Shown: in pieces, positions 15,445-39,958 of the stretch
How the letters are laid out: each line of letters starts with the position of its first letter
Position numbering within the stretch: position 1 is the first letter of the stretch
Assembly (NCBI GenBank): GCA_965216325.1
Contig: OZ244160.1
Span: forward strand, 2,080,001-2,144,000
DNA length: 64,000 nucleotides
From: Coraliomargarita sp.
GTDB taxonomy: Bacteria; Verrucomicrobiota; Verrucomicrobiia; Opitutales; Coraliomargaritaceae
Reading direction: 5' to 3'
Translations under genes and position numbers: made by a program
Notes under the pieces: model-generated
The model's database searches: none
What the model saw: only the letters and a program-made list of their open reading frames with translations
Told to the model about the DNA's origin: nothing

Positions 15445-15460
15445 TGCAGATCAGGTGCCA
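15445..15460 (-). promoter_or_regulatory. sigma54 -24/-12 promoter
   Basis: Minus strand TGGCACCTGATCTGCA = GG-N10-GC, close to the TGGCAC-N5-TTGCW consensus. Confidence 0.75.
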
Positions 15461-15538
15461 GATTTCCCGGCTTGAGTGTAAGTGGTTCTTTACCAGTTCG
15501 ATACATTTCTATGGGTGGTGCGCTTTACATTATCCGAA

Positions 15539-15602
15539 TGTAACTTTTACAGCCAATTAGGTTGGAGCATTCAACTGTGCCTGTTCAGTTGTATATTTTT
15601 CA
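15539..15602. promoter_or_regulatory. Paired putative enhancer (UAS) boxes
   Basis: TGTAACTTTTACA (15539-15551) and TGTATATTTTTCA (15590-15602, inside the 3' end of the flippase gene). Confidence 0.55.
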
Positions 15603-16849
15603 GTTGAGGGCGTGAGTGGTGCTCTAGTCGCGCAGCCTATGGCATAGTAAAGCTCAGCAATGATGAGGCTGCTGATACTACCAACTAATCCAAATTGCAG
15701 GGTCCCAAAGATGAAGAGTGGCACTGCGATGAGAGCGCTTTGAATCCGCAGGCGTGCGGTGAGTTGTGCGCCACACACTAGCCGTGTTTGTGCGCCGATC
15801 ATCTGGCAGCTGGTAAAGGCATCAAGCCCTGCGTAGACGATTCCAAGCGAGAGCCATTTTCCCGCAGCGGCAAGCTCGGGACCAAAAAGAACCAGCGTTA
15901 GGTTTGAACCAAATACAAGGCCGAGCGGCGCGGCTAAAAGTGTAGTTATCAAAATCAAGGCGTATGAAAGCCTCAGTGTCCGCGCAAAGTCATCCATTCG
16001 TGATTGATTTACATACAGGGCTAACCTAGGGCGCAGCAGGTTGCTCACTGCCATGATCAATAACCGAATCGGGCCAATCAAAGTCCAAATGACCCCATAA
16101 AATGCCAATGTCTCAGGGGTGGAAAACATACCGAGTAGATAGGGTTGAATTCGTGAACATACACTGTTTGCGATCGATCCTTTGAACATTGAACGTCCGT
16201 CTGCTTTAGCTCGATCAAGGATGGGTGTCTGTTCGATTTGGGCCCCTATGCTGGCGCTTGTAGATTGAAGACGCATGCGCACAATCCCGAAAGCCGCCGC
16301 GGCGAATGAACCGAACCAATAGGCGCTCAGAATTGATCCGCTCTGGAGCCACAATGCCACACTTACGAGGCAGTGGACCAAGATGCTAACCAGATCGATA
16401 CTGAAGGCTGAACTCAGCTTGAATTCGATTTGTAAGCGTGTGCGAGCTGCACTTTGAAGGAGTTGACTACTGGCTGCGAGTGCGAAGCCCACACTTGTTG
16501 CGATTGAAAACTGTCCGGGTATTAGAATATAGGCGCATAGCACGCCAAGTGGAAGAAACACCAACGCGGCGCGCTCCACGCCGCGTTGGGCCCAACTGCA
16601 CAGTGCCCCATATACTGTAGGGTTCGCTCCAGTTCCCTTGTTCAGTAATGGCATGAGGTAAGCTGTGCTGGGAAGAATCTGAAAAATGATGCTGGTGGTC
16701 ATCAGTAGAATGAAGCTAGCGAAGACCTCCGCACCACCTATTCGTGCGATGGCTAGTCCACAAGCGAATCGATAGCCGGATAGCAAGGTGCTATCTGCCA
16801 AGCCGTAGAACTTGTCGGTGTTCTGCAAGAACTGTAGGCGTTTAAACAT
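15557..16849 (-). CDS. Wzx-like polysaccharide flippase
   Basis: 430 aa with about 12 hydrophobic segments; last gene of the EPS cluster. Confidence 0.75.
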   Translation of the reverse strand: MFKRLQFLQNTDKFYGLADSTLLSGYRFACGLAIARIGGAEVFASFILLMTTSIIFQILPSTAYLMPLLNKGTGANPTVYGALCSWAQRGVERAALVFLPLGVLCAYILIPGQFSIATSVGFALAASSQLLQSAARTRLQIEFKLSSAFSIDLVSILVHCLVSVALWLQSGSILSAYWFGSFAAAAFGIVRMRLQSTSASIGAQIEQTPILDRAKADGRSMFKGSIANSVCSRIQPYLLGMFSTPETLAFYGVIWTLIGPIRLLIMAVSNLLRPRLALYVNQSRMDDFARTLRLSYALILITTLLAAPLGLVFGSNLTLVLFGPELAAAGKWLSLGIVYAGLDAFTSCQMIGAQTRLVCGAQLTARLRIQSALIAVPLFIFGTLQFGLVGSISSLIIAELYYAIGCATRAPLTPSTEKYTTEQAQLNAPT

Positions 16850-16850
16850 G

Positions 16851-18053
16851 CTACTGATAGTTCTTGATTACGGATCGGAAGCGTTTCACTAGATGTAGCG
16901 CATGTGCGCGTGGAGTGTAGTTGGCTTCATAGATCGCGCGGCCACGTTGGCCCATTTTGTATGCGCGATTTGGATACGTGAGTAAGTCGTCAATCTTTTG
17001 GCAGAGTTTATCCGAATTTCCGGGGTCAACAAGGTAGCCTGTCTCCTTGTGGGCAATAATCTTCGCTGGGCCTCCGAGCCTGCTGGCAATGACGGGGATA
17101 CCAGCGCCCATGGCTTCAATCACGGTGAGGCCAAAGGGTTCGGCCCATATGGAAGGACACACAAGCAGGTCTGACTGGCAGATGTGCTGTAAAGTAATCG
17201 CGTGTGTCAGTGTGCCATGAAAGTGTATACTCGAGTCGGAGGCAGCGATTGCCTTGAGGGCTGCTAGTTCAGGTCCATCGCCAATGATTTTGAGTCGAGC
17301 TTTCGCACGAGTGGGTGCACTCAATTGCTGCCAAGCGCGAAGCAAAATATCTACCCCTTTCTCGGGGACAAGTCGCCCAGCGAAGCAGACATCGATCTTT
17401 TGACTTGTTTCATCTTTAGAATGTGTGTCGAGCGGATCGGGGCATGCGTTTGGGATGATAGACATACGTTCCACGGGAAGGCCCATTTTATAGTGGCGTT
17501 CTTGGACTTCTTGGCTCGGGCAGATATAGTGATCAACGCTTTCGGTAAACTGACCGTTTGACCAGTTTCGGTCGACGAGATGTTTCCAGGTGATCGTTCC
17601 AGGTAAGCTGTTGTTGTAGCAGCGATATTTCAGTGCGGGACGATTGTTTCCCGGGCTGCAGAGTGTGCACTCTTGCCCTCTGCGTCGATAGGTAGCTGCG
17701 GCACAACCCAGACGATAGTTGTGTAAGGTCTGGACGACTGGTATCTTGGCTCTTTGGTGTGCTGTATAGATGGATGGGCTTAGCAGTGGAAACCAGTTGT
17801 GGACATGGCTAATGTCTGGGCGCTTCTGATCTAGAAATGCCTGCACTGCCCTCTTTGAAGACTTATTATAGGCTGCGGTGAGTGCGGTGTGAATCTTGGT
17901 TCCAAGGCTGTTGGATCCGAGTGTATCTGTGTTCGACACATGATAGACGACGACCTCGTGTCCGAGTGCGCGAAGAGCAGCCTGTTCAAGTTCGAACATA
18001 CTGTCTTCGCCACCACGCATCTGGTAACTATTATGAAAGAGAGCGATTTTCAT
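16851..18053 (-). CDS. Glycosyltransferase family 4
   Basis: GGED, HVHNWFPLLSPS, FAGRLVPEKG and EPFGLTVIEAM motifs. Confidence 0.93.
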   Translation of the reverse strand: MKIALFHNSYQMRGGEDSMFELEQAALRALGHEVVVYHVSNTDTLGSNSLGTKIHTALTAAYNKSSKRAVQAFLDQKRPDISHVHNWFPLLSPSIYTAHQRAKIPVVQTLHNYRLGCAAATYRRRGQECTLCSPGNNRPALKYRCYNNSLPGTITWKHLVDRNWSNGQFTESVDHYICPSQEVQERHYKMGLPVERMSIIPNACPDPLDTHSKDETSQKIDVCFAGRLVPEKGVDILLRAWQQLSAPTRAKARLKIIGDGPELAALKAIAASDSSIHFHGTLTHAITLQHICQSDLLVCPSIWAEPFGLTVIEAMGAGIPVIASRLGGPAKIIAHKETGYLVDPGNSDKLCQKIDDLLTYPNRAYKMGQRGRAIYEANYTPRAHALHLVKRFRSVIKNYQ

Positions 18054-39225: not shown

Positions 39226-39331
39226 GTGCTGACCGTGGACCGAAGCAAATCCGAATTAAAACGATGTTGCTTTGCACCGCATCCGAGGAACTCAGTGACG
39301 ACCAGAAGCGATGGTAGCGCAGGTGCGTCTC

Positions 39332-39703
39332 GAATGGCACTACCTTAAGGATAATTATGGGCTGGATGTTCTATTGCGGTATAGACTGTTTAAAACTCTC
39401 TTCCTTGGTTAGGAGGAGTCCCCTGAGCTTGTCGAAGGGGGAGGTGGTTGGTTGCTGCGTTATACCATACTGTAACTTTTCCCCTTAAAAAGGTAGGGAG
39501 GTCCCCTCCGACTTTCAGAGGCATGAGGGCATGCCTCCCTACCCAACAATAGCATTCGTCCTACCAGAAATAGTTGAAGACTGGTATTATAGGCCTTTCT
39601 TCGGTCATACCCCTCCGTCTGCTTTCGCAGGCACCTCCCCATGGCTGGGGAGGTGCTATTTGTCTCTGAGAATTCTTAAATTTGCCTTAAGGTAGTAACA
39701 TTC
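39332..39703. mobile_element. IS4-like non-autonomous element (MITE, 372 bp)
   Basis: TIRs GAATGGCACTACCTTAAGG and rc GAATGTTACTACCTTAAGG (17/19); flanking 10-bp near-duplication GGTGCGTCTC (39322-31) / GGTCCGTCTC (39704-13); no transposase. Confidence 0.7.
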
Positions 39704-39799
39704 GGTCCGTCTCGGACTGCATTCAGGCCTGCGCATGTGTAATGTTGAACCGTTAATGAACGTGAATGCTAAGTGATGTAGGACAGGCGTCGCACCGCT

Positions 39800-39876
39800 T
39801 GTAAAAAATTCAGGAGACGTTTTTTTGGGGGATCCAAAGACGGTAGAATTTACTGGGATACCATACGTATCCCAGT
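39800..39876. promoter_or_regulatory. Putative enhancer boxes and palindrome upstream of the adhesin gene
   Basis: TGTAAAAAATTCA (39800-12), GGTAGAATTTACT (39842-54) and ACTGGGATAC-CATAC-GTATCCCAGT (39852-76). Confidence 0.5.
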
Positions 39877-39942
39877 TTCTGAGGAGTAGCGAAATTATTT
39901 ATCCAGCTGATAAACAGGTGCTTGTGTAGTTTGGGAGGTCGG

Positions 39943-39958
39943 TGGCATGTCGCCTGCT
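39943..39958 (+). promoter_or_regulatory. sigma54 -24/-12 promoter
   Basis: TGGCATGTCGCCTGCT = GG-N10-GC, 26 nt before ATG 39984. Confidence 0.6.

What the first reader, a model, noticed from the sequence alone, without database searches (positions are those of the whole stretch)
15445..39958. Self-contained H-NOX / hybrid kinase / sigma54 regulon controlling EPS and two adhesin-like genes
Seen: three promoters share one architecture, a -24/-12 element plus two TGTA-N5-TACA-type boxes about 87-96 and 138-148 bp upstream of -24. FG-GAP gene: TGGCACCTGATCTGCA 15445-60, boxes 15539 and 15590. EPS operon: TTGGCACGCGGGATGTA 29607-23, perfect boxes 29708 and 29761. Adhesin: TGGCATGTCGCCTGCT 39943-58, boxes 39842 and 39800. 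Divergent from the EPS operon is an H-NOX gene (His, YxSxR intact), a sensorless cytoplasmic kinase and a bEBP with intact GAFTGA. Known: H-NOX proteins regulate cognate kinases and biofilm, usually via c-di-GMP enzymes. Inference: a gas (NO/O2) or redox signal is wired directly to sigma54 transcription of matrix genes in a PVC bacterium. The box 16 nt before hnox suggests autoregulation.
Basis: partly seen in the sequence, partly recalled or inferred. Interest (0 to 1): 0.85.

Follow-up and report, generated by a model that had tools for sequence, protein, structure and literature searches.

The report
H-NOX / sigma-54 exopolysaccharide regulon
A marine Verrucomicrobium has a compact gene cluster in which a nitric-oxide-type haem sensor, a relay kinase and a sigma-54 activator seem to switch on a slime-synthesis operon and two surface-protein genes through a shared pair of DNA boxes; the logic is already known from Vibrio fischeri, and in this strain a one-base frameshift breaks the relay.

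Summary
Perfect TGTA-N5-TACA occurs 3 times in the window against 0.29 expected. Genome-wide, all 7 intergenic AT-spacer copies lie in four related regions. Box positions are near-constant: 90-104 and 135-155 nt upstream of TGGCA in 12 of 13 promoters scanned. Boxes and -24 are footprints: 16 of 16 half-site columns are invariant in five orthologues, against 26 of 173 other intergenic columns. Gene calls are confirmed: H-NOX, hybrid kinase, REC-AAA-HTH8 activator with GAFTGA, an EPS operon, one rpoN and three activators.

Corrections:
- The EPS -12 is GT, not GC.
- The "sensorless" kinase is a derived in-frame loss of two PAS domains.
- The Hpt domain is cut off by a real 1-nt deletion. A 98.4%-identical metagenome contig carries the missing C.
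- The first EPS gene is a divergent receiver whose ATG lies at the predicted start site.

The wiring is not new in principle. V. fischeri HnoX-HahK-SypF/LuxU-SypG-syp has the same logic. This is a compact, self-contained variant in another phylum. No RNA or binding data exist.

The parts
13614..15350 (-). FG-GAP beta-propeller surface or secreted protein gene. The likely start is the ATG at 15350; the longer ORF from 15506 would swallow its own promoter.
   Evidence: Pfam FG-GAP_3 1.8e-31. Orthologue in G007 at 59% identity.
15445..15460 (-). sigma-54 -24/-12 element TGGCACCTGATCTGCA of the FG-GAP gene
   Evidence: G007 orthologue has TGGCATCGTTTATGCG with boxes 90 and 141 nt upstream.
15539..15551 (.). 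FG-GAP proximal box TGTAACTTTTACA (perfect), 91 nt upstream of TGGCA
15590..15602 (.). FG-GAP distal box TGTATATTTTTCA (1 mismatch), 142 nt upstream. It lies inside the 3' end of the last EPS gene.
15557..29595 (-). EPS operon of about 11 genes: receiver, Bac_transf priming transferase, WecG-GT2-GT4 fusion, SLBB/Poly_export, Wzz-like, Wzy, two unknown membrane proteins, GT4 and a 430-aa membrane protein
   Evidence: Pfam and NCBIfam. The same gene order occurs in L003, L004 and G007.
29089..29595 (-). First EPS gene: a divergent single-domain receiver (168 aa) with a C-terminal two-helix extension. Its ATG lies 11 nt after the -24/-12 16-mer.
   Evidence: Pfam Response_reg 19.4 bits, below the 30.2 cut-off. 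AF2 pLDDT 78.6; top Foldseek hits are all receiver domains, TMt 0.76-0.84. D22, D24, D62, S91 and K113 are invariant in 7 sequences.
29607..29623 (-). EPS sigma-54-type promoter TTGGCACGCGGGATGTA, with -12 GT instead of GC
   Evidence: TGCCA and the ACA of -12 are invariant in 5 orthologues. The G008 orthologue has canonical TGGCATCTAACATGCA.
29709..29721 (.). EPS proximal box TGTAGATTTTACA (perfect), 99 nt upstream of TGGCA
29762..29774 (.). EPS distal box TGTAAAAAATACA (perfect), 152 nt upstream of TGGCA and 16 nt before the hnox ATG
29791..30336 (+). H-NOX haem sensor gene (181 aa)
   Evidence: HNOB 123.7 bits. PDB 6ocv E 1.5e-40 with the His and Y-S-R aligned. H104, P117, Y133, S135 and R137 are invariant in 22 sequences.
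30350..32114 (+). Hybrid histidine kinase: N-terminal coiled coil, HisKA, HATPase and receiver. It lacks the two PAS domains of orthologues. As assembled, the ORF runs on out of frame to 32470.
32114..32115 (+). Site of a 1-nt deletion (frameshift) between the receiver and the Hpt domain
   Evidence: tblastn frame change. Own-strain contigs are identical, while metagenome contig X5 has an extra C behind 32114.
32115..32493 (+). Hpt domain, in the frame of ORF 32095-32493 and out of frame with the kinase
   Evidence: Pfam Hpt 34 bits. It aligns to residues 980-1101 of the L003 kinase.
32495..33853 (+). NtrC-family enhancer-binding protein (REC, AAA+, HTH_8; GAFTGA present)
39800..39812 (.). Adhesin distal box TGTAAAAAATTCA (1 mismatch), 143 nt upstream of TGGCA
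39842..39854 (.). Adhesin proximal box GGTAGAATTTACT (2 mismatches; the GTA-N5-TAC core is kept), 101 nt upstream
   Evidence: G024 has TGTAGAATTTACC.
39943..39958 (+). sigma-54 -24/-12 element TGGCATGTCGCCTGCT of the adhesin-like gene
   Evidence: Conserved in G007 (TGGCATGTTGCATGCT) and G024 (identical).
39984..43238 (+). Large repeat protein (DUF4114, DUF11, LruC/DUF4842, Asp-rich repeats). "Adhesin-like" is a guess.

Best explanation
This is a conserved sigma-54 regulon of a clade of Puniceicoccaceae (Verrucomicrobiota).

SIGNAL PATH. hnox, a hybrid kinase and an NtrC-type enhancer-binding protein form one operon. H-NOX is inferred to modulate the kinase. Phosphate would pass His to Asp (kinase receiver) to His (Hpt) to Asp (activator receiver). 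In the ancestral form the kinase is PAS-PAS-HisKA-HATPase-REC-Hpt.

OUTPUT. The phosphorylated activator is inferred to bind pairs of TGTA-N5-TACA boxes. The boxes are 33, 41-42 or 51-53 nt apart, about 3, 4 or 5 helical turns. They lie 90-104 and 135-155 nt upstream of -24/-12 promoters, and from there the activator would open sigma-54 polymerase. Targets in this genome are the divergent 14-kb EPS operon, the FG-GAP gene just downstream of it, and a large repeat-protein gene 6 kb beyond the activator gene.

FEEDBACK (inferred). The first EPS gene is a small divergent receiver. It is a candidate feedback or post-transcriptional element, comparable to SypE in V. fischeri. The distal EPS box lies 16 nt before the hnox ATG, so activator binding probably also affects hnox transcription, most simply as autorepression.

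DIRECTION (inferred). By analogy with characterised H-NOX/kinase pairs, NO-bound H-NOX would lower kinase activity and switch matrix genes off.

THIS LINEAGE AND STRAIN. The kinase has lost both PAS domains, which leaves H-NOX as the only recognisable input. In this strain a 1-nt deletion separates Hpt from the kinase, so the relay is probably impaired unless Hpt is translated separately.

SHOWN: the anatomy, its conservation, its statistics and the frameshift. INFERRED: binding, phosphotransfer, the ligand, the sign of regulation and the start sites.
For: BOX ENRICHMENT AND ARRANGEMENT.
- Enrichment and intergenic restriction of the boxes.
- Two boxes at near-constant distances in 12 of the 13 promoters scanned, in this genome and in G007, G024, G008, L003 and L005. 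In L007 the proximal box fell under the scan's A/T-spacer filter; it is a perfect box.

FOOTPRINT. In five orthologous EPS/hnox spacers:
- 16 of 16 half-site columns are invariant.
- 2 of 10 box-spacer columns are invariant.
- 26 of 173 remaining intergenic columns are invariant.

CONSERVATION OF ALL THREE PROMOTERS.
- The adhesin promoter and boxes are conserved in G007 and G024.
- The FG-GAP promoter and boxes are conserved in G007.
- A G007 adhesin paralogue has the same layout: CGGCACGGGATATGTT with boxes 103 and 156 nt upstream.

PHYLETIC LINK.
- Perfect box pairs occur in 8 of 101 family genomes; the reversed control pattern occurs in 0 of 101.
- In 6 of those 8 genomes a pair lies beside hnox.
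- G008 has the same pair with one mismatch.
- The activator gene follows the kinase gene in 5 of 5 such loci with enough sequence: own, L003, L004/G007, L005 and G008.

SIGMA-54 MACHINERY.
- rpoN is present.
- There are only 3 full activators, and no AT-spacer box lies near the other two.
- The G008 EPS orthologue and the G007 paralogous module have a canonical -12 GC at the same promoter position.

H-NOX AND THE KINASE.
- H-NOX residues are intact.
- H-NOX with the kinase dimer (residues 1-310) and haem gave WEAK support: score 0.52 (runs 0.51-0.53), best of 3 controls 0.01, runs agreeing in 100% of contacts, partner pLDDT at least 88.
- In the tool's calibration the mark was reached by 116 of 157 solved complexes and 2 of 215 mismatched pairs. 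At 0.60 or under it was reached by only 18 of those 157 solved complexes and by both mismatches that passed.

PRECEDENTS. HnoX-HahK-SypF/LuxU-SypG-syp (PMC12369376) and H-NOX/HqsK-LuxU-LuxO (PMC6759604).
Against: - No transcript, start-site, binding or ligand data exist. No RNA run was listed.
- The EPS promoter has GT at -12 here and in 4 of 5 orthologues examined. The two paralogous copies in this genome have GA.
- The link from boxes to this activator is associative only. The same half-sites serve as apparent NrtR operators in two genomes of another genus.
- The more distant genus G008 shows no boxes upstream of its fused adhesin/FG-GAP gene. Only the EPS promoter is therefore a conserved core target.
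- The Hpt frameshift is real in this strain's reads, so the pathway may not operate here.
- No sigma-70-like hnox promoter was found by the simple scan.
- The complex prediction is only weak support. By the tool's calibration such a score is more often wrong than right unless the guess was likely beforehand.
- Genomes from one family are not independent observations.
Confidence: 0.7

Rival explanations
1. The regulon is real in the clade but is a relic in this strain. With Hpt out of frame, H-NOX and the kinase can no longer phosphorylate the activator. The EPS, FG-GAP and adhesin genes would then be silent, or driven by cross-talk from other kinases.
For: - Frame change between the receiver and Hpt.
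- Own-strain contigs X1 and X4 are identical to the window over 30598-34000, with 0 differences and 0 gaps.
- A 98.4%-identical metagenome contig (80 differences in 5001 nt) carries one extra C behind 32114, which puts Hpt back in frame.
- Both PAS domains are lost.
- Two decayed hnox copies lie next to a transposase and group II introns.
Against: - The Hpt frame is open from 32077 and has a GTG at 32095, so a separate Hpt protein is possible.
- All other genes and all cis elements are intact.
- The PAS loss is in frame and is shared with the metagenome relative, so it is not simple decay.
- The sequencing technology behind X1 and X4 is not on record, and they come from one sample that may be the source of the assembly.
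Confidence: 0.35
2. The boxes are operators of a different DNA-binding protein: one of the other two activators, or an unrelated regulator using TGTA-N5-TACA. The neighbouring activator would then act elsewhere or through other sites.
For: - No binding data exist.
- Identical half-site pairs lie between an NrtR gene and a nicotinamidase-like/NUDIX operon in G039 and G012.
- All three activators of the genome share the REC-AAA-HTH8 architecture.
Against: - No NrtR winged-helix domain was found in this genome at 99.98% completeness, with 24,000 bases withheld.
- The boxes sit at enhancer distance from -24/-12 elements in every case.
- The pair sits beside hnox in 6 of the 8 genomes that hold perfect pairs, plus G008 with one mismatch. 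The activator gene follows the kinase gene in 5 of 5 such loci with enough sequence.
- No AT-spacer box lies near the other two activator genes.
Confidence: 0.12
3. H-NOX is not the input to this kinase. It could act on another partner, and the kinase would respond to other cues: through its PAS domains in orthologues, or constitutively here.
For: - Orthologous kinases carry two PAS domains that could sense something else.
- The complex prediction gives only weak support.
Against: - hnox is immediately followed by a histidine-kinase gene in most family loci examined, including every box-bearing locus with enough sequence.
- The kinase N-terminal 64 residues are 69% identical to L003 and were retained when the PAS domains were lost.
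- H-NOX/kinase operon pairs are the characterised norm (PMC6759604, PMC12369376).
Confidence: 0.1
4. The similarity of the three promoters is a coincidence of AT-rich intergenic DNA.
For: - The adhesin boxes carry 1 and 2 mismatches.
- The total of perfect boxes in the genome (18) is only modestly above the expected 12.
Against: - 0 of 100 shuffles reached the window count.
- Restriction to intergenic DNA.
- Near-constant positions.
- Footprints in orthologues.
- 0 of 101 genomes match the reversed control pattern.
Confidence: 0.02

Closest known systems
Vibrio fischeri HnoX-HahK -> SypF(Hpt)/LuxU -> SypG (sigma-54 regulator) -> syp polysaccharide locus, with the SypE receiver protein
   Same: - An NO-type H-NOX encoded in an operon with a hybrid kinase.
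- A His-Asp-His-Asp relay to a sigma-54-dependent response regulator.
- That regulator activates several promoters of a polysaccharide locus through a shared enhancer sequence.
- An extra receiver protein is encoded within the polysaccharide locus.
Source: PMC12369376, abstract, passages and reference titles read.
   Different: - Here all parts are in one cluster, and the kinase carries (ancestrally) its own Hpt domain and two PAS domains.
- The activator is adjacent and apparently dedicated.
- The enhancer is a different motif: paired TGTA-N5-TACA.
- The targets include two surface-protein genes.
- The phylum is Verrucomicrobiota.
- Orthology to the Syp proteins was not tested, and no experiments exist.
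Vibrio harveyi / V. parahaemolyticus H-NOX-HqsK -> LuxU -> LuxO
   Same: - A cytoplasmic H-NOX controls a hybrid kinase.
- The phosphoryl group reaches a regulator through an Hpt protein, and NO-bound H-NOX lowers kinase activity (PMC6759604, passages read).
- That LuxO is a sigma-54 activator is recalled, and is consistent with the NCBIfam LuxO model name seen.
   Different: - In Vibrio the output is small RNAs and quorum sensing shared with other kinases, not a private EPS regulon.
- Hpt is a separate protein there.
PrsK/PrsR sigma-54 system of PEP-CTERM/EPS loci in Proteobacteria (Haft et al. 2006)
   Same: An NtrC-type regulator plus a conserved upstream motif and a -24/-12 motif in front of EPS-associated surface-protein genes. 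That paper notes that other regulators and motifs remain to be found outside Proteobacteria, and that Verrucomicrobium spinosum lacks PrsK, PrsR and PrsT (PMC1569441, passages read).
   Different: - The activator scores 359.2 bits against TIGR02915, below the 502.6 cut-off.
- The kinase is cytoplasmic and H-NOX-linked, not the transmembrane PrsK.
- The three targets here are not PEP-CTERM proteins.
- The exosortase genes lie elsewhere in the genome.
NtrC-type enhancers in general (paired dimer sites about 100-150 nt upstream of -24/-12)
   Same: Two inverted-repeat sites on the same helical face at enhancer distance, bound by an activator with REC, AAA+ and Fis-type HTH domains. This is recalled textbook knowledge.
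   Different: The half-site sequence and 13-bp geometry (TGT-N7-ACA) match no activator site that I can name from memory. No search for this motif in print was made.

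Membership tests
sigma-54 (-24/-12) promoter class | GG and GC dinucleotides 10 nt apart in a TGGCAC-N5-TTGCW context | tested here: met
   Met at the FG-GAP promoter (TGGCACCTGATCTGCA) and the adhesin promoter (TGGCATGTCGCCTGCT).
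sigma-54 (-24/-12) promoter class | The same feature at the EPS promoter | tested here: inconclusive
   - TTGGCACG is perfect, but -12 is GT here and in L003, L004, L005 and L007.
- The orthologous promoter in G008 and the paralogous one in G007 have TGCA.
sigma-54 (-24/-12) promoter class | The organism encodes RpoN and an activator with GAFTGA | tested here: met
   Sigma54_DBD 194 bits at G000 1228099. Three full activators. GAFTGA is read in the translation.
sigma-54 (-24/-12) promoter class | Transcription starts about 12 nt downstream of -12 and depends on RpoN | not testable with these tools
   No RNA holder was listed.
NtrC-family response-regulator enhancer-binding protein | REC, AAA+ Sigma54_activat and HTH_8 domains | tested here: met
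   87, 219.7 and 31.3 bits, all above their cut-offs.
PrsR (TIGR02915, PEP-CTERM-box regulator) | Score above the equivalog cut-off | tested here: not met
   359.2 bits against a 502.6 cut-off. No NCBIfam equivalog cut-off was reached by any of the 25 best models shown, of 94 hit.
H-NOX (HNOB) haem sensor | HNOB domain with the proximal His and the Y-x-S-x-R haem-propionate motif | tested here: met
   - 123.7 bits against a 25.5 cut-off.
- His in IHSEV and Y-S-R aligned to PDB 6ocv.
- H104, Y133, S135 and R137 are invariant in 22 sequences.
H-NOX (HNOB) haem sensor | Binds haem and NO or O2 | not testable with these tools
   Residue 142, five positions after R137, is Leu rather than Tyr. From recalled work on O2-binding H-NOX this suggests NO selectivity. 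This is a lead only.
H-NOX-associated hybrid histidine kinase (HqsK/HahK type) | Cytoplasmic HisKA-HATPase-REC kinase encoded directly downstream of hnox | tested here: met
   The gap between hnox and the kinase gene is 13 nt. The same order occurs in L003, L004, L005, G007 and G008.
H-NOX-associated hybrid histidine kinase (HqsK/HahK type) | Physical or functional control by H-NOX | tested here: inconclusive
   Complex prediction gave weak support: 0.52 against a best control of 0.01. No experiment exists.
Complete His-Asp-His-Asp phosphorelay | An Hpt domain in frame with, or expressed alongside, the kinase | tested here: not met
   - In this strain Hpt is in another frame.
- It is met in the orthologues (1095-1108 aa single ORFs).
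- It is also met in metagenome contig X5, which carries one extra C.
Response-regulator receiver domain (first EPS gene) | CheY-like fold with the acidic pocket, phospho-Asp, Ser/Thr and Lys | tested here: met
   - Pfam is below its cut-off: 19.4 against 30.2 bits.
- The model (pLDDT 78.6) matches receiver domains, TMt 0.76-0.84, E about 1e-6.
- D22, D24, D62, S91 and K113 are invariant.
V. fischeri Syp system (orthology) | Orthologues of SypG, SypF and the syp genes | not tested
   Only the logic was compared, from PMC12369376. No Syp sequences were fetched.

The most novel reading that the evidence does not exclude
In the g1/g19 clade the EPS operon would be read from a sigma-54 promoter with a non-canonical -12 (TGT), whose transcript begins at or within 2 nt of the AUG of the first gene. 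That would be a leaderless sigma-54 mRNA. Its product, a divergent receiver, would draw phosphate from the Hpt domain and so give the H-NOX relay built-in negative feedback.

The same promoter/receiver module has been copied within the genus. In this genome one truncated copy lies in front of a PEP-CTERM surface-protein gene, which may have brought new genes into the regulon.
Probability: 0.25. Interest if true: 0.6.

Novelty: new variant of a known kind. Interest (0 to 1): 0.5.

Why it matters
- It gives Verrucomicrobiota, a phylum with almost no characterised transcription regulation, a precisely defined regulon that can be tested directly: one activator, a 13-bp box pair at fixed distances, and three to five promoters.
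- It shows that the H-NOX to sigma-54 to polysaccharide logic worked out in Vibrio fischeri also exists as a compact single-locus unit in another phylum. A close relative was seen in a run labelled algae metagenome (X5). NO made by hosts or neighbours is a possible cue there; that is speculation.
- The natural frameshift allele and the intact allele in a near-identical relative offer a ready-made comparison.
- The -12 GT promoter and the AUG at the predicted start site raise a small but real question about sigma-54 promoter grammar and leaderless translation in this clade.

Tried and rejected
- RNA evidence: the look-up of sequencing runs listed no RNA holder for 28400-34000, so start sites and expression could not be examined.
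- Simple sigma-70 and terminator scan of the hnox/EPS spacer: 0 promoter-like sites, uninformative. By eye, a TTG is conserved upstream of the distal box and could be a weak -35. I did not pursue it.
- Rfam: 0 families at gathering score in 13000-45500. No tRNA in 33000-46000.
- PrsR/PEP-CTERM idea: rejected as membership. Exosortase genes lie at 824 kb, 880 kb and 1716 kb, not in this locus.
- NrtR as the box binder: rejected for this genome.
- Regulon extension in the distant genus G008: no boxes or -24/-12 element upstream of its 2908-aa adhesin/FG-GAP ORF with the patterns used.
- L006, a contig titled Yoonia sp. MAG with an 84%-identical H-NOX: its upstream region does not align and lacks the distal box. 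I left it out of the footprint count, along with the two paralogues.
- 14 of the 20 family H-NOX loci fetched have no boxes and a different gene context: a hexapeptide-transferase gene upstream, a single-PAS kinase, an HNOBA kinase, or the order activator-hnox-kinase in L031.
- Earlier-findings look-up returned nothing.
- The first NCBIfam call failed on a frame error of mine and was corrected.
- Papers: four searches for H-NOX, Coraliomargarita or a leaderless mRNA with sigma-54, an enhancer-binding protein, EPS or Verrucomicrobia. Among the titles and abstract openings listed, none described this Verrucomicrobial system or a leaderless sigma-54 mRNA. Only listings were seen for most hits.

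Full report
WHAT IS THERE. The window is G000:C1:2080001-2144000 of a 3.06-Mb single-contig genome. The nearest relatives found with the H-NOX protein carry record titles Coraliomargarita sp. or uncultured Puniceicoccaceae bacterium, at 84-95% amino-acid identity.

Pfam and NCBIfam confirm the gene content:
- FG-GAP propeller protein, 13614-15350, minus strand.
- A 14-kb minus-strand EPS operon, 15557-29595. It encodes a Bac_transf priming transferase, a WecG-GT2-GT4 fusion, an SLBB/Poly_export protein, a Wzz-like protein, Wzy, a GT4 and several membrane proteins without a family.
- On the plus strand, divergent from the operon: hnox (29791-30336), a hybrid kinase (from 30350), an Hpt ORF in another frame (32095-32493) and a REC-AAA-HTH8 activator (32495-33853). 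GAFTGA is read in the translation.
- A large repeat protein (39984-43238) with DUF4114, DUF11 and LruC domains.

THE OBSERVATION. All three -24/-12 elements and all six boxes are at the stated places; two box starts are off by 1 nt.
- Perfect TGTA-N5-TACA occurs 3 times in the window against 0.29 expected; 0 of 100 shuffles reached 3.
- The genome holds 18 perfect copies, about 12 expected.
- Ten of the 18 have an A/T-rich spacer. Seven of those ten are intergenic, although only about 12% of the genome is intergenic by my crude ORF calls.
- All seven lie upstream of FG-GAP, in the EPS/hnox spacer, or in two diverged copies of that spacer at 465 kb and 548 kb.
- Of 314 genome matches to TGGCA-N7-TG[CT]N, 13 have any box (up to 1 mismatch) within 260 nt upstream. 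Only EPS and FG-GAP have two. The adhesin promoter has one plus a 2-mismatch box.

ARCHITECTURE. I measured from box start to the T of TGGCA on the transcribed strand.
- EPS: 99 and 152 nt.
- FG-GAP: 91 and 142 nt.
- Adhesin: 101 and 143 nt.
- Of the 13 promoters scanned, 12 show a proximal box at 90-104 nt and a distal box at 135-155 nt. In L007 only the distal box passed the scan's A/T filter; its proximal box is a perfect TGTAGGTTTTACA.
- Box-to-box spacing is 51-53 nt (EPS, FG-GAP), 41-42 nt (adhesin) or 33 nt (the 465-kb copy). These are about 5, 4 and 3 helical turns, so both sites face the same side of the DNA.

CONSERVATION.
- In five orthologous EPS/hnox spacers (window, L003, L004, L005, L007), 16 of 16 half-site columns are invariant. 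So are 2 of 10 box-spacer columns and 26 of 173 remaining intergenic columns. The TGCCA of -24, the ACA of -12 and the receiver-gene ATG are also invariant. I left L006 and the two paralogues out of this count.
- A same-genus genome (G007) has the same synteny and keeps all three promoters with their boxes. G024 keeps the adhesin promoter.
- Among the 20 H-NOX loci fetched from 101 family genomes, 6 have the box pair plus the -24 element: own, G007, G024, G081, G084 and G008. A seventh, G076, appeared in the pattern scan.
- Perfect box pairs occur in 8 of 101 genomes; the reversed control pattern occurs in 0 of 101.
- Two of those eight genomes (G039, G012) have the pair between an NrtR gene and a nicotinamidase-like/NUDIX operon. 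The half-site is therefore not unique to this system. This genome has no NrtR winged-helix domain.

IS THE EPS PROMOTER A SIGMA-54 PROMOTER? TTGGCACG is perfect. The -12 is GT here and in four orthologues, and GA in this genome's two paralogous copies. Three observations make me accept it as a sigma-54 promoter with a weakened -12:
- The orthologous promoter in genus g8 reads TGGCATCTAACATGCA.
- The paralogous module in G007 reads TGGCATGGCGCATGCA.
- A G007 adhesin paralogue has CGGCACGGGATATGTT with boxes 103 and 156 nt upstream.
The genome has one rpoN and three full activators, all REC-AAA-HTH8. No A/T-spacer box lies near the other two.

THE FIRST EPS GENE (29089-29595) has no Pfam hit at default thresholds.
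- It scores 19.4 bits against Response_reg, below the 30.2 cut-off.
- The acidic pair, phospho-Asp, Ser and Lys are invariant in seven sequences.
- Its model (pLDDT 78.6) matches only receiver domains at the top of a PDB search, TMt 0.76-0.84.
- Its ATG lies 11-12 nt after the -24/-12 16-mer in eight loci of two genera, and 28 nt after it in G008. With the usual sigma-54 geometry, the transcript would begin at or 1-2 nt before the AUG.
- The roughly 18 N-terminal residues vary in sequence but hardly in number. A leaderless mRNA is an inference; no RNA data were available.

THE KINASE.
- Orthologues are single ORFs of 1095-1108 aa. Pfam on two of them gives PAS-PAS-HisKA-HATPase-REC-Hpt.
- The window's kinase equals residues 1-64 joined to residues 449-978 of the L003 protein. 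That is an in-frame loss of both PAS domains. The frame then changes just before Hpt.
- Contigs of two runs of the organism's own sample match the window over 30598-34000 with no difference.
- One 20.7-kb metagenome contig (80 differences in 5001 nt) spans the whole stretch with a single indel: an extra C behind 32114. By frame arithmetic that C joins the kinase frame to the Hpt frame, which is open from 32077.
- The PAS loss is therefore shared by this species-level lineage, and the frameshift is specific to the strain. Whether Hpt is still made, for example from the GTG at 32095, is unknown.

H-NOX.
- The best solved relative is 6ocv (E 1.5e-40), with the proximal His and Y-x-S-x-R aligned.
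- H104, P117, Y133, S135 and R137 are invariant across 22 sequences.
- A co-fold of H-NOX with the kinase dimer (residues 1-310) and haem scored 0.52 (runs 0.51-0.53), against 0.01 for the best of three controls. The tool's verdict is weak support. At 0.60 or under, only 18 of 157 solved complexes reached the mark, as did both of the 2 of 215 mismatched pairs that passed.
- I count this as a small addition to a guess that was already likely from the operon arrangement.

COMPARISON WITH WHAT IS KNOWN.
- The closest system is V. fischeri. NO-bound HnoX inhibits the hybrid kinase HahK. HahK signals through the SypF Hpt domain, and also LuxU, to SypG. SypG is a sigma-54-dependent regulator that activates the syp polysaccharide locus through a syp enhancer, and SypE is an extra receiver protein (PMC12369376: abstract, passages and reference titles read).
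- In V. harveyi and V. parahaemolyticus, H-NOX/HqsK feeds LuxU and LuxO, and NO-bound H-NOX inhibits kinase autophosphorylation (PMC6759604, passages read).
- Haft et al. described the PrsK/PrsR sigma-54 system with an upstream motif for PEP-CTERM genes in Proteobacteria only. They noted that other regulators remain to be found elsewhere (PMC1569441, passages read). The activator here falls below the PrsR cut-off.
- A paper linking sigma-54 generally to the cell exterior appeared in a listing only (PMC3162934).
- The principle is therefore known. What is new:
  - the single-locus layout with a fused Hpt and an adjacent dedicated activator;
  - the box motif and its strict geometry;
  - the surface-protein targets;
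  - the phylum;
  - the odd -12 with the AUG at the predicted start site.

SIDE OBSERVATIONS.
- The hnox-5'/boxes/promoter/receiver module exists in two further diverged copies, 78-85% identical over the hnox part.
- The 465-kb copy has a truncated receiver. It lies about 200 nt upstream of a PEP-CTERM gene, in a cluster of such genes.
- The 548-kb copy keeps a full receiver paralogue. It is flanked by a DDE transposase and two group II introns.

VERDICT. The regulon reading is well supported by comparative genomics but rests on no experiment. It is a new variant of a known kind of circuit. In this particular strain the relay is probably impaired.

Noticed in passing
window 39331-39704: A ~374-nt element with 26-nt terminal inverted repeats (85% complementary). 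It has a 98.5% copy at G000 2614396-2614794 and a 75% copy at 1292680-1293068. It looks like a small non-autonomous mobile element, inserted about 95 nt upstream of the distal adhesin box.
   Followed up: partly
window 38052-38181: A ~130-nt repeat with at least five further copies in the genome at 80-91% identity. Its nature is unknown; no Rfam or tRNA match.
   Followed up: no
L001 7113-7520 (G000 465.1-465.5 kb): A diverged copy of the hnox 5' end, both boxes (33 nt apart), TTGGCATGGCGCATGAT and a truncated receiver stub. It lies about 200 nt upstream of a PEP-CTERM gene, within a PEP-CTERM cluster at 462-475 kb.
   Followed up: partly
L002 11995-13000 and 14470-16715 (G000 548-552 kb): A second diverged copy with a full 170-aa receiver paralogue followed by a DDE transposase. 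Its hnox stub (HNOB positions 1-90) is followed by two group II introns with reverse-transcriptase/maturase ORFs.
   Followed up: partly
L067 1501-2194 (G007:C84): The congener has the same paralogous module with a canonical -12 (TGGCATGGCGCATGCA) and an intact receiver paralogue. The duplication therefore predates the split of the two genomes.
   Followed up: partly
L062 / L063 1501-1551 (G039, G012): Paired TGTA-N5-TACA sites 38 nt apart between an NrtR (NUDIX plus winged-helix) gene and an isochorismatase-family/NUDIX operon. These are probably NrtR operators using the same half-sites.
   Followed up: partly
L053 3805-12531 (G008:C91): One 2908-aa ORF contains both an adhesin-like part (42% identity) and an FG-GAP part (45% identity). 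These are separate genes 24 kb apart in the window.
   Followed up: no
L031 88-3478 (G075:C10): Another H-NOX locus type in the family, with the order activator - hnox - kinase and no boxes within 400 nt upstream of hnox.
   Followed up: no
window 33832-34617: A DUF480 gene overlaps the 3' end of the activator gene by 22 nt. It is not in this position in L003, L004 or G007, where other genes follow.
   Followed up: no
window 5269-13354: Two long ORFs (1263 and 1419 aa) just upstream of the FG-GAP gene read like rpoB and rpoC by their translations. This is my reading; no family scan was run.
   Followed up: no
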